From the IMG/VR virus record IMGVR_UViG_2667527898_000017: a stretch of DNA of 4,344 bases, one strand, 5' to 3'. Positions 2,980 through 4,344 of the stretch are shown in pieces (positions within the stretch are counted from its first letter, which is position 1; every line of letters begins with the position of its first letter). Below the pieces are notes generated by a model, which was not told where the DNA came from, searched no databases, and saw only the letters and a program-made list of their open reading frames with translations. Source of the stretch: a virus. Lineage: Monodnaviria > Loebvirae > Hofneiviricota > Faserviricetes > Tubulavirales. The position numbers and the translations under genes are program-made.

Positions 2980-3240
<261 letters not shown>

Positions 3241-3255
3241 TAGTTATTTAACGAC

Positions 3256-3278
3256 AGCGCCCTCCGGGGCGCTTTTTT
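3256..3278 (+). terminator. Rho-independent terminator between the coat gene and gene III
   Basis: Read directly: AGCGCCC (3256..3262), loop TCCG, GGGCGCT (3267..3273), a perfect 7-bp GC-rich stem followed by a T-run to 3278. It starts 16 nt after the pVIII stop. Confidence 0.7.
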
Positions 3279-3300
3279 AATCATACCAGGAGTGTTTTGT

Positions 3301-4344
3301 TTGATTCACTTTATTATTCCGCTTCTGTTTTTGTTCTTTTCCTCGTTTTCTTTCGCTGAAGAGAAAGAAAATCCGGATGCACTTGTTCAGTGTGCAGGCC
3401 ATTCATCCTGCAGGACAGATTATTCGGACGCGGGGACGTCGATTAAATTAGCCAGGGCGGCCGGTCATCTTTTCTGTGGTTCGGGCAGTTATGACGCATG
3501 TTCCGGAATAATTCATTATTGTGGTGTGCCACTTTCAACGCCTGTTAATGCACCTTCGACTGTCGGGTCTTTTGTCCGTGCCCGGTGGTCAGCATATAAA
3601 GTCTGGGATTCAGACAAGCAAAAGTGGACAGCCTGCACCCTTGCTTTTCAGGGTGGTGAGGGGGATTTGACACCTGAATATAATAAGCCGCCAACTGACG
3701 AGATTTGTCTTTCTCGTCCGGTTCTTGATGGTATGACTTTTTCTGATGTTTATAAAGGTGATGACGGGACCCGTTATGTTAATGTGCAGGGGTGTATTTA
3801 TGAGGCAACCGGTAATCCTCTTATTTGTAATCCCGATGATGATACAGTTTGTACTGCCGACTGGAAACCAGTTGCTGTAGATCCTGCATTCTCCGATGGT
3901 AAGGAGGATGGCGGTAGCTCAGGTGGTGGCAGTTCCGGTGGTGGTAACCCAGGCGGCGGCAGTTCCGGTGGTGGTTCAGGTTCTGGCTCCGGTGGTTCAT
4001 CCGGTAGCGGTGGCTCCGGCTCGGGTTCCGGCGGCTCATCCGGCAGTGGTGGTTCAGGTTCTGGCTCCGGTGGTTCATCCGGTAGCGGTGGCTCCGGCTC
4101 GGGTTCCGGCGGCTCATCCGGCAGTGGTGGTTCAGGTTCTGGCTCCGGTGGTTCATCCGGTAGCGGTGGCTCCGGCTCGGGCTCCGGCGGTTCATCCGGT
4201 AGCGGTAGTTCAGGTTCAGGATCCGGTGGCTCATCAGGCGATGACAATGGCTGGCGTGATGGTAGTTTGGGCTGGTTAACAACAATATGGGTGTCAGTGA
4301 ATGATTTAAATAATGCTTTTTCTGTTTCTCAGGCTGATATGAAT
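3301..4344 (+). CDS. gIII: Minor coat / adsorption protein pIII (5' partial; runs off the window end)
   Basis: The frame opens after TAG 3241..3243 and has no stop through 4344 (I translated it codon by codon). No in-frame ATG near the 5' end; TTG at 3301 follows AGGAG at 3288..3292 by 8 nt. Predicted signal peptide MIHFIIPLLFLFFSSFSFA. An N1-like module (about 3700..3880) has four Cys with Ff-like spacing, followed by a ~110-aa Gly/Ser linker (3907..4239) and the start of a further domain. Confidence 0.85.
   Translation, partial: MIHFIIPLLFLFFSSFSFAEEKENPDALVQCAGHSSCRTDYSDAGTSIKLARAAGHLFCGSGSYDACSGIIHYCGVPLSTPVNAPSTVGSFVRARWSAYKVWDSDKQKWTACTLAFQGGEGDLTPEYNKPPTDEICLSRPVLDGMTFSDVYKGDDGTRYVNVQGCIYEATGNPLICNPDDDTVCTADWKPVAVDPAFSDGKEDGGSSGGGSSGGGNPGGGSSGGGSGSGSGGSSGSGGSGSGSGGSSGSGGSGSGSGGSSGSGGSGSGSGGSSGSGGSGSGSGGSSGSGGSGSGSGGSSGSGSSGSGSGGSSGDDNGWRDGSLGWLTTIWVSVNDLNNAFSVSQADMN
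3973..4206 (+). repeat. 78-bp tandem repeat (three full copies plus partial flanks) encoding the pIII Gly/Ser linker
   Basis: Read directly: copies at 3973..4050 and 4051..4128 are identical; copy 3 (4129..4206) differs at 3 positions. Degenerate partial copies flank it (3961..3972 and 4207..4239). Each unit holds two 39-bp halves that both encode GSGSGSGGSSGSG with different codons. Confidence 0.85.

What the first reader, a model, noticed from the sequence alone, without database searches (positions are those of the whole stretch)
3301..3900. pIII architecture: an extra N-terminal Cys-containing module ahead of an Ff N1-like module
The segment EICLSRPVLDGMTFSDVYKGDDGTRYVNVQGCIYEATGNPLICNPDDDTVCTADWKPV aligns by eye with Ff g3p N1 (ESCLAKPHTENSFTNVWKDDKTLDRYANYEGCLWNATGVVVCTGDETQCYGTWVP, recalled from memory), with matching Cys spacing. 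In Ff, N1 is the TolA-binding domain and sits at the N-terminus. Here it is preceded by a ~115-aa module with six Cys and joined directly to the linker, so the N-terminal module is a candidate primary-receptor (pilus or other) binding domain of unknown specificity.
Basis: partly seen in the sequence, partly recalled or inferred. Interest (0 to 1): 0.6.

Follow-up and report, generated by a model that had tools for sequence, protein, structure and literature searches.

The report
Phage pIII with orphan receptor domain
The tip (adsorption) protein of an uncharacterised filamentous prophage of E. coli has a TolA-binding-type domain preceded by a rare, fast-diverging domain that most likely chooses the primary receptor; phage IKe has the same layout, so the architecture is ordinary but the receptor domain is new and untested.

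Summary
Window 3301-4344 is the 5' part of gene III (pIII) of an about 8.7-kb inovirus prophage that sits in tandem copies next to hipBA/dif in E. coli. After a 19-aa signal peptide comes a 98-aa six-Cys module, a conserved 17-aa connector, a four-Cys module, a 110-aa Gly/Ser linker and the C-domain. The four-Cys module is a true homolog of the g3p TolA-binding (N1) domain: IKe 4eo1 E=8e-13, Ff 2g3p E=4.5e-12, Pfam PF05357 above cut-off, Foldseek TM 0.85 to If1 N1. "Module first, N1 second, then linker" is not new. It is the arrangement of IKe, I2-2 and Erwinia PEar g3p. What is new is the N-module. It has no sequence relative in PDB, Pfam, PHROGs or NCBIfam, only five 50%-identity clusters among 1.84 billion proteins (unannotated inovirus pIII proteins, four labelled E. 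coli), and no convincing fold match. It is the most divergent segment of the prophage (80-84% against 97.5-100% identity), and it recombines independently of the second module. The best reading is an IKe-like, independently folding primary-receptor-binding domain of unknown specificity upstream of a TolA-binding domain. This is inferred, not shown.

The parts
2998..3240 (+). Gene VIII-like major coat protein (80 aa precursor, PGAP start; the ORF is open from TTG 2980). It lies immediately upstream of gene III.
   Evidence: ORF list. PGAP annotation in L001 at 10793-11035. Signal peptide plus TM-helix sequence. Second divergence hot spot: 88-94% identity, dN 0.04-0.11.
3256..3279 (+). Intrinsic terminator-like hairpin (7-bp stem, 6 G-C pairs, followed by TTTTTT) between gene VIII and gene III. 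This is the same position as the annotated stem-loop in IKe.
   Evidence: Terminator scan. IKe annotation 'stem loop structure, pot. transcription termination' between VIII and III.
3288..3303 (+). Shine-Dalgarno AGGAG (3288-3292) and TTG start codon (3301-3303) of gene III.
   Evidence: Sequence. PGAP uses the same start in L001 at 11096.
3301..4344 (+). Gene III (pIII adsorption protein), first 348 codons; it runs off the 3' end of the window. The full length is 451 aa in the 99%-identical prophage L001.
3301..3357 (+). Signal peptide (19 aa, ...FSSFSFA / EEKEN).
   Evidence: Read directly from the sequence; same length as the annotated IKe g3p signal peptide. The cleavage site is inferred, not predicted with a tool.
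3358..3651 (+). N-module: an orphan, mostly-beta domain of 98 aa with six Cys (mature C12, C18, C40, C48, C55, C93). Candidate primary-receptor-binding domain.
3652..3702 (+). Conserved inter-module connector GGEGDLTPEYNKPPTDE. It has low model confidence and low variability, and the recombination joint lies just after it.
   Evidence: pLDDT below 50 at mature 98-105. Mean column entropy 0.24 bits against 0.61-0.74 in the N-module. DNA matches of nine genomes end at query 422, which is window 3722.
3703..3885 (+). N1-like module (61 aa, four Cys), a homolog of the g3p TolA-binding domain of Ff, If1 and IKe.
3910..4239 (+). Gly/Ser linker (110 aa: 60 Gly, 48 Ser, one Asn, one Pro), encoded by a 78-bp tandem repeat of 3.4 copies. 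Copy number differs between prophage copies.
   Evidence: TRF; composition; the window has more repeat units than L001. The ORFs on the opposite strand here are artefacts of the repeat.
4240..4344 (+). Start of the C-terminal (virion-anchor) domain, DDNGW...; truncated by the end of the window.
   Evidence: Alignment of full-length relatives shows a conserved C-domain ending in a hydrophobic helix.

Best explanation
This is the adsorption protein (pIII) of a temperate filamentous phage of E. coli, built in the IKe fashion. It has a signal peptide, an independently folding N-terminal domain that binds the primary receptor on the cell surface (specificity unknown), and a short conserved connector. 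Then come an N1-type domain that binds the C-terminal domain of TolA in the periplasm, a long flexible Gly/Ser tether, and a C-domain that anchors the protein in the virion tip and mediates entry.

The homology, the domain order and the evolutionary behaviour are shown. Receptor binding by the N-module, TolA binding by the N1-like module, and independence of the two domains (no Ff-type locking) are inferred.
For: (1) N1 homology by sequence, Cys pattern and fold. The matching PDB entries are described by their depositors as TolA-binding (4eo1) or solved in complex with TolA (2x9a, 1tol). If1, IKe and CTXphi pIII are reported to bind TolA (PMC10424213).

(2) Same order as IKe g3p: 4eo0 = residues 20-128 and 4eo1 = residues 130-199, followed by a Gly-rich linker. 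I2-2 and PEar1 are the same. PHROG 4150 and 8516 align their profile positions from about 132 onward to this protein's residues from 129 onward. From my own knowledge (Jakob et al. 2012, Mol Microbiol), IKe's first domain binds the N pilus, and the two IKe domains fold independently.

(3) The N-module is the divergence hot spot. It is 80-84% identical, with dN 0.15-0.20 and omega 0.42-0.60. Rep, g5-like, orf46 and orf56 are 97.5-100% identical (dN at most 0.016, omega 0.07-0.29), and the adjacent N1 module is 97% identical in the same prophages.

(4) Cassette behaviour:
- The same N-module (99% nt identity in L009) is joined to a different, divergent N1 homolog (hhalign probability 92%).
- A nearly identical N1 sits behind N-modules that are only 25-31% identical (P0011; L006, P0016 and P0017 carry a more diverged N1).
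- The module also occurs on an unrelated inovirus backbone with an Ff/I2-2-type gene II.
Free recombination argues against a co-evolved inter-domain interface.

(5) A related prophage (Rep 88.7% identical) encodes a secreted TolA C-terminal-domain homolog. Such a gene makes sense if phages of this group enter via TolA.

(6) The prophage has a complete inovirus gene set in L001: Rep, G5P-like, small membrane proteins, g8, g3, g6-like, Zot/pI and a secretin.
Against: No binding, infection or structural experiment exists for this protein or for any close relative; all relatives are annotated 'hypothetical protein'.

Pairwise omega stays below 1 and dS is also raised (0.26-0.37). The hot spot therefore reflects imported diverged alleles and relaxed constraint, not demonstrated positive selection.

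Variation is only modestly higher outside predicted strands than inside them (0.74 against 0.61 bits).

The AF2 models rest on 10-11 sequences and have pLDDT of only 75, so the absence of a fold match to IKe's pilus-binding domain or to Ff N2 is weak negative evidence.

Confidence: 0.62

Rival explanations
1. Ff-type 'locked' adsorption unit. The N-module binds the primary receptor but is also docked onto the N1-like module, masking the TolA site until receptor binding unlocks it, as in fd N1-N2.
For: The single best two-module AF2 model has pTM 0.70, which does not exclude a fixed relative orientation. The connector is short (17 aa) and strongly conserved, unlike a free Gly-rich tether.
Against: The other four models score only pLDDT 60-62, and the connector has the lowest confidence. 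Natural chimeras combine one N-module with two very different second modules, and one N1 with N-modules only 25-31% identical. That is hard to reconcile with a co-adapted interface. There is no homology to Ff N2.
Confidence: 0.13
2. The N-module is an ancient, extremely diverged duplicate of the N1-type beta-barrel. It binds a second periplasmic or envelope partner (another Tol-Pal component or a second site on TolA) and does not bind an external receptor.
Confidence: 0.1
3. The N-module mainly serves the lysogen and not phage entry. For example, it could act as an adhesin or fitness factor, or as a superinfection-immunity determinant when pIII is expressed from the prophage.
For: A review states that interruption of the CUS-1 pIII-equivalent gene puvA reduced in vivo fitness of E. 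coli K1 (PMC4266046). Most listed carriers are human isolates, many of them from stool.
Against: CUS-1 is not a demonstrable relative of this phage; no relationship was found. The position at the distal end of a pIII with a TolA-binding domain, a long tether and a virion anchor is the canonical place for the receptor-binding domain (PMC12477597).
Confidence: 0.07
4. The gene is a decaying remnant and the N-terminal module has no function.
For: PGAP fragments gene III in one relative.
Against: That ORF is in fact intact (528 aa). The ORFs are intact in all copies inspected. The four core Cys and 11 residues are invariant down to 25% identity. Omega is 0.4-0.6, not 1. The prophages are complete and present in tandem copies.
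Confidence: 0.03

Closest known systems
g3p of the N-pilus-specific Lineavirus phages IKe and I2-2, and of Erwinia phages PEar1-6
   Same: Identical layout: a 19-aa signal peptide, an N-terminal domain of about 108-112 aa, a TolA-binding N1-type domain of about 65 aa (44% identity to IKe over residues 122-195; E=8e-13 to 4eo1), a Gly-rich linker and a C-domain. A terminator hairpin lies between genes VIII and III.
g3p of Ff phages (M13, fd, f1)
   Same: The N1 domain is homologous, with the same four Cys. Gly/Ser-rich linkers are present, and the overall logic is primary receptor, then TolA, then C-domain entry (PMC12477597).
   Different: In Ff, N1 is N-terminal and the pilus-binding N2 follows after a short linker. 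Here the order is reversed, there is no N2 homolog, and there is only one long linker.
g3p of phage If1 (I-pilus specific)
   Same: It gives the best structural match for the N1-like module (2x9a and 2x9b, TM 0.85-0.86). 2x9a is N1 in complex with TolA-C.
   Different: If1 has N1 first and a large, different second domain.
dif-integrating temperate inoviruses (CTXphi, CUS-1, YpfPhi)
   Same: Tandem chromosomal copies next to a dif-like half-site beside hipA. The Rep is distantly related to CTXphi RstA and to fs2/VFJ Rep (29-30% identity). Zot-like pI and secretin genes are present. As with YpfPhi, the receptor is unidentified (PMC4266046).
   Different: No close relationship was detected. No deposited phage matches at DNA level, and no relative turned up in species-representative genomes, which include Y. 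pestis. My initial assumption that this was CUS-1 was dropped.

Membership tests
g3p N1 / TolA-binding domain (Pfam PF05357 Phage_Coat_A) | Sequence match to the family model above the curated threshold | tested here: met
   36.4 bits against a 20.8-bit cut-off, E=4.6e-9. phmmer E values of 1e-7 to 5e-13 to Ff, If1 and IKe N1 chains.
g3p N1 / TolA-binding domain (Pfam PF05357 Phage_Coat_A) | Four Cys at the conserved positions (two disulfides in Ff N1) | tested here: met
   Three Cys columns are invariant, and the fourth is shared with Ff, IKe and PEar1 (If1 lacks it). Disulfide formation itself was not tested.
g3p N1 / TolA-binding domain (Pfam PF05357 Phage_Coat_A) | N1 fold | tested here: met
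   Foldseek: 2x9a and 2x9b TM 0.85-0.86, rmsd 1.5-1.7 A; 4eo1 TM 0.74; 1g3p rmsd 1.1 A. The model pLDDT in this part is 80-88.
g3p N1 / TolA-binding domain (Pfam PF05357 Phage_Coat_A) | Binds the C-terminal domain of TolA | not testable with these tools
   Inferred from homology only. A TolA-III-like secreted protein in a related prophage gives indirect support.
IKe-type (Lineavirus) g3p | Domain order: receptor domain, TolA-binding domain, Gly-rich linker, C-domain | tested here: met
IKe-type (Lineavirus) g3p | N-terminal domain homologous to the IKe pilus-binding domain (4eo0) | tested here: not met
IKe-type (Lineavirus) g3p | Uses N (IncN) conjugative pili as primary receptor | not testable with these tools
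   No data. The unrelated N-domain makes the same specificity unlikely (inference).
Ff-type g3p (N1-N2-CT) | N1 at the mature N-terminus, followed by an N2 pilus-binding domain | tested here: not met
   N1 starts at mature residue 116. hhalign of the N-module against Ff N2 gives probability 0.3%. No second domain lies between N1 and the long linker.
Inovirus pIII (functional class: virion-tip adsorption protein) | Gene position after the major coat gene and before the g6-like, Zot/pI and secretin genes; signal peptide; Gly-rich tether; C-terminal hydrophobic anchor | tested here: met
   Gene order in L001. Zot Pfam hit. C-terminal hydrophobic helix in full-length relatives.
dif/Xer-integrating inoviruses (CTXphi, CUS-1, YpfPhi type) | Integration at the chromosomal dif site, in tandem arrays | tested here: inconclusive
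   Tandem copies with an 8,739-bp period beside hipA, and a dif-like half-site GGTGCGCATAATGT at L001 position 7322. The attachment sites were not mapped. Other copies sit beside an IS110-family transposase at other loci.

The most novel reading that the evidence does not exclude
The N-module is a previously undescribed receptor-binding fold whose alleles (five clusters at 50% identity) define host-range types of a family of temperate E. coli inoviruses. Its target would not be a conjugative pilus but a chromosomally encoded surface structure of the E. coli lineages that carry the prophage, most of them human isolates. Natural swapping of the first module, the second module and even the domain order within one phage group would then be a living example of how filamentous phages re-target. 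The secreted TolA-domain protein would be the matching counter-measure.
Probability: 0.3. Interest if true: 0.55.

Novelty: new variant of a known kind. Interest (0 to 1): 0.35.

Why it matters
Filamentous prophages are common in pathogenic enterobacteria, yet the receptors of most temperate ones are unknown; the YpfPhi review says so explicitly for that phage (PMC4266046). This locus offers a clean, compact test case. It has a recognisable TolA-binding domain, which gives a ready positive control. It also has an orphan 98-aa domain that exists in several natural alleles and natural chimeras. That makes receptor identification by domain swapping onto M13 straightforward, an approach already used with other inovirus receptor-binding domains (PMC12477597). 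It would also add a new specificity cassette for phage-display and targeting work. In terms of architecture it only extends the IKe precedent, so the conceptual gain is modest.

Tried and rejected
(1) I first assumed from memory that the prophage was CUS-1/YpfPhi, because of tandem integration beside dif. I dropped this: no DNA match in deposited phages, no relatives in species-representative genomes by pIII or Rep patterns, and no classical K1 strains evident among the listed E. coli Rep hits.

(2) The profile search returned two giant repeat proteins, P0015 (E=2.7e-19) and P0018. Per-domain scores are 5.7 bits in each of 16 identical repeats and 1-10 bits respectively, so these are summed noise, not homologs.

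(3) N-module against N1 profile: hhalign probability 0.2%. N-module against Ff N2: 0.3%. There is no sequence-level relation.

(4) N-module against IKe, I2-2 and PEar N-domains by BLASTP: nothing.

(5) Foldseek of the N-module against BFVD viral structures: best E 0.28. Foldseek of the two-module model against PDB matched only the N1 part. AFDB50 was not available.

(6) The L015 pIII N-terminus looked related by eye, but it scores only 7.5 bits against the N-module profile. I left it as 'possible remote relative'.

(7) I tested whether variability concentrates in predicted loops. The contrast is weak: 0.74 against 0.61 bits.

(8) Literature searches for a CC-licensed statement of the IKe domain order and functions failed. 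The order is therefore documented from PDB sequence mapping, and the domain functions from PDB titles plus my own recollection of Jakob et al. 2012.

Full report
WHAT THE WINDOW IS.
The 4,344-bp window is the left part of a filamentous (Inoviridae-type) prophage of Escherichia coli. It carries:
- a 666-aa replication endonuclease of the Phage_GPA family (209-2209; Pfam E=4e-48);
- a weak G5P-like ssDNA-binding candidate (2240-2665);
- two small membrane proteins;
- an 80-aa major-coat-like protein (2998-3240);
- a strong terminator hairpin (3256-3273 plus a T-run);
- an ORF that starts at TTG 3301 behind an AGGAG and runs off the window.

Megablast finds the window in 43 of 5,426 complete E. 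coli genomes, always on the chromosome, and in no deposited phage. In the best match (strain 100416, 99% identical) the element is 8,739 bp long. It is present in at least two tandem copies directly after hipBA and a dif-like half-site. It continues with a g6-like gene, a Zot/pI gene and a secretin. There, gene III encodes 451 aa and is annotated 'hypothetical protein'. The nearest deposited phages by Rep protein are Vibrio inoviruses VFJ and fs2 and the CTXphi RstA, at about 29% identity, so this is an uncharacterised lineage.

CHECKING THE OBSERVATION.
The similarity is real:
- phmmer against all PDB chains gives E=8.4e-13 to 4eo1 (IKe), 4.5e-12 to 2g3p (fd), 4.5e-13 to 1tol (the N1-TolA fusion) and 1e-7 to 2x9a (If1).
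- Pfam Phage_Coat_A is above its gathering score.
- The four Cys align.
- An AlphaFold2 model of the mature N-terminal 184 residues (pLDDT 75 overall, 80-88 in this part) superposes on If1 N1 (TM 0.85-0.86), the IKe TolA-binding domain (TM 0.74) and Ff N1 (rmsd 1.1 A).

Ahead of this module lie a 19-aa signal peptide, a 98-aa module with exactly six Cys and a 17-aa connector. After it, 8 residues lead into a 110-residue Gly/Ser linker encoded by a 78-bp repeat of 3.4 copies.

IS THE ARCHITECTURE UNUSUAL?
No. tblastn of the N-terminal 203 residues against deposited phages hits only the N1-like stretch, and in IKe, I2-2 and the Erwinia PEar phages that stretch starts around residue 127-136 of the precursor. 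Mapping IKe g3p onto PDB sequences shows two solved domains in the same order as here: 4eo0 at residues 20-128 and 4eo1 at residues 130-199, followed by the Gly-rich linker. PDB titles call 4eo1 'the TolA binding domain from the filamentous phage IKe'. That 4eo0 is the N-pilus-binding domain, and that the two IKe domains fold independently, I take from memory of Jakob et al. 2012 (Mol Microbiol). PHROG families 4150 and 8516 also place about 130 positions before their N1-like part. So 'module first, N1 second, then linker' is the established Lineavirus arrangement. Relative to Ff the two N-terminal domains are permuted; nothing is added.

WHAT IS NEW: THE N-MODULE.
The 98-aa module has no detectable relative among PDB sequences and no Pfam, PHROG or NCBIfam family. 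It has no similarity to the N-domains of IKe, I2-2 or PEar1, nor to Ff N2 or to N1 by profile-profile comparison (probabilities 0.3% and 0.2%).

An exhaustive HMMER profile search of 1.84 billion representative proteins returned seven hits. Two are giant repeat proteins whose scores are sums of 1-10-bit repeats and are spurious. The other five are pIII proteins with the same layout. All are unannotated and all are from E. coli, except one 3.9-kb MAG contig labelled Aerococcus. That contig's backbone is an E. coli-type inovirus with an I2-2-like gene II, so the label is almost certainly a binning artefact. Across these relatives, down to 25% identity, four Cys (C40, C48, C55, C93) and seven other residues are invariant. 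The C12-C18 pair is present only in the closer alleles.

EVOLUTIONARY BEHAVIOUR.
I compared the window with four related prophages:
- Rep, g5-like, orf46 and orf56: 97.5-100% identical (dN at most 0.012, omega 0.07-0.29).
- N-module: 80-84% identical (dN 0.15-0.20, dS 0.26-0.37, omega 0.42-0.60).
- Adjacent N1-like module: 97% identical in those prophages that retain it.
- Major coat gene: a second, milder hot spot (88-94% identical).

The modules recombine as cassettes:
- In nine complete genomes the DNA match to 3301-3900 stops at position 422, which is window 3722 in the 'CLSRPV' motif. Beyond that point they carry a different second module, which hhalign shows to be a divergent N1 homolog (probability 92%, E=5e-7, Cys aligned). 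In L009 the N-module is 99.4% identical to the window while the second module is replaced.
- Conversely, P0011 joins a nearly identical N1 to an N-module that is only about 30% identical.
- The connector GGEGDLTPEYNKPPTDE between the modules is the least variable stretch and looks like the recombination joint.
- Strain E100341 carries several copies with different second modules.
- In more distant members of the same Rep lineage other solutions appear. L013 (Rep 88.7% identical) has N1 first, followed by a linker and a Cys-containing second domain, which is the Ff/If1 order. L014 has a large unrelated N-terminal region. L015 has a possible remote N-module relative at 7.5 bits.

MECHANISM, WITH SHOWN AND INFERRED STEPS.
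Shown:
- a gene III in canonical genomic position, with a signal peptide, a long flexible tether and (in full-length relatives) a C-terminal hydrophobic anchor;
- a bona fide N1-type domain;
- an N-terminal domain that is rare, hypervariable relative to its genome and exchanged as a unit.

Inferred:
- The N1-like domain binds TolA domain III, as its Ff, If1 and IKe homologs do.
- The N-module binds the primary receptor, by position (the distal end of pIII, as in IKe) and by its divergence.
- The two domains are functionally independent, as in IKe, because natural chimeras would disrupt a co-adapted Ff-type lock.

The receptor is unknown. The unrelated N-domain makes IncN-pilus specificity unlikely. 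I put about 0.6 on this model. The main rivals are an Ff-like locked unit (0.13), a diverged N1 duplicate with a periplasmic partner (0.10), a lysogen-benefit function (0.07) and a decaying gene (0.03).

INDIRECT SUPPORT FOR THE TolA STEP.
The L013-type prophage encodes, in its accessory region, a 121-aa protein with a signal peptide and a TolA C-terminal domain. The evidence is Pfam PF06519 E=2.3e-13, NCBIfam TolA models, and phmmer E of about 4e-7 to E. coli TolA-III, including the chain co-crystallised with If1 N1. It occurs in 4 of 5,426 genomes, always in two or more copies, and in no deposited phage. A secreted TolA-III look-alike is what one would expect of a decoy that blocks superinfection by TolA-dependent phages. 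That is speculation, but it fits a phage group whose entry depends on TolA.

COMPARISON AND NOVELTY.
The protein works like IKe g3p and shares its layout and its TolA-binding domain family. It fails the membership test for the Lineavirus g3p family on the N-terminal domain, and the genome is unrelated. It fails the Ff-type test on domain order and on N2. It is best filed as a new variant of a known kind: an IKe-style pIII carrying an orphan receptor-binding module. A specialist would not be surprised by the architecture. The interest lies in the untested specificity domain, the unusually clear natural module shuffling (including both domain orders within one phage lineage), and the TolA-domain accessory gene nearby.

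VERDICT.
Observation confirmed. Interpretation supported as a hypothesis, with the correction that the arrangement has a textbook precedent in IKe. Interest 0.35.

Noticed in passing
L013:2430-2795 (minus strand); E. coli UTME-13 NZ_CP157093.1 2488347-2488712: A related prophage (Rep 88.7% identical) encodes a 121-aa secreted protein consisting of a signal peptide plus a TolA C-terminal domain. Evidence: Pfam PF06519 E=2.3e-13, and matches to E. coli TolA-III chains including 2x9a_B. It is found in 4 of 5,426 E. coli genomes, always in two or more copies, and in no deposited phage. It is a candidate periplasmic TolA decoy (superinfection exclusion). I found no description of such a gene in the papers searched.
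   Followed up: partly
L013:6294-7562, L014:6277-8229, L015:6021-7628: Within one Rep lineage, pIII shows at least four N-terminal architectures: N-module then N1 (the window); N-module then a divergent N1 (P0021 type); N1 first, then a linker and a Cys domain (L013, Ff/If1 order); and a large unrelated N-terminal region with a (GET)n linker (L014).
   Followed up: partly
L007:3390-..., L008:3389-..., L009:3396-...; proteins P0006, P0008, P0009, P0021: The alternative second module (ENCLSRPVIKDFSYSLGDVVWVDTGNGQESQSLEINGCRYLIDFNECDDDGNC...) has no Pfam hit but is a divergent N1 homolog (hhalign probability 92%, E=5e-7). It is followed by an extra CDDDNC motif. Whether it still binds TolA is unknown.
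   Followed up: partly
window 2998-3240 (gene VIII-like): The major coat gene is a second divergence hot spot: 88-94% nt identity, dN 0.04-0.11, omega 0.35-0.60, against 97.5-100% identity for the replication and small-protein genes.
   Followed up: partly
L007:1-292, L008:1-292, L012:1-404, L014:1910-2863, L015:1870-2823: Many copies of this prophage family have an IS110-family (RNA-guided) transposase gene immediately upstream of Rep and sit at loci other than hipA/dif (for example near ybaV/fadM and near yraR). This suggests a second integration route besides dif.
   Followed up: no
L016 (GCA_030528155.1 contig JAUMZL010000036.1, 3,945 bp): The N-module also occurs on a different inovirus backbone with an Ff/I2-2-type gene II (Phage_CRI + G2P_X_C). 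That backbone is 88.8% identical to prophages in 167 E. coli genomes, but the match ends before the coat genes. The MAG label 'Aerococcus sp.' is probably a binning error.
   Followed up: partly
L006:10097-11683: PGAP splits an intact 528-aa gene III into a pseudogene fragment, a spurious reverse-strand ORF inside the Gly/Ser repeat, and a C-terminal 'hypothetical protein'. The window likewise has long spurious ORFs on the opposite strand at 3798-4285.
   Followed up: yes
window 3968-4235: The linker is encoded by a 78-bp tandem repeat (3.4 copies, 95% match). Copy number differs between the window and the 99%-identical L001 copy, and linker length ranges widely among relatives (full-length proteins of 408-528 aa).
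   Followed up: partly
E. coli E100341 NZ_CM128606.1 (hits H2 and H36): A single strain carries several copies of this prophage family (11 matching places) with different pIII second modules, so it is polylysogenic for variants differing in the adsorption protein.
   Followed up: no
L001:7322: A dif-like half-site, GGTGCGCATAATGTGACACGCGTTATGTTG, lies between hipA and the first prophage copy. This is consistent with Xer-mediated integration at dif, but the attachment sites were not mapped.
   Followed up: partly
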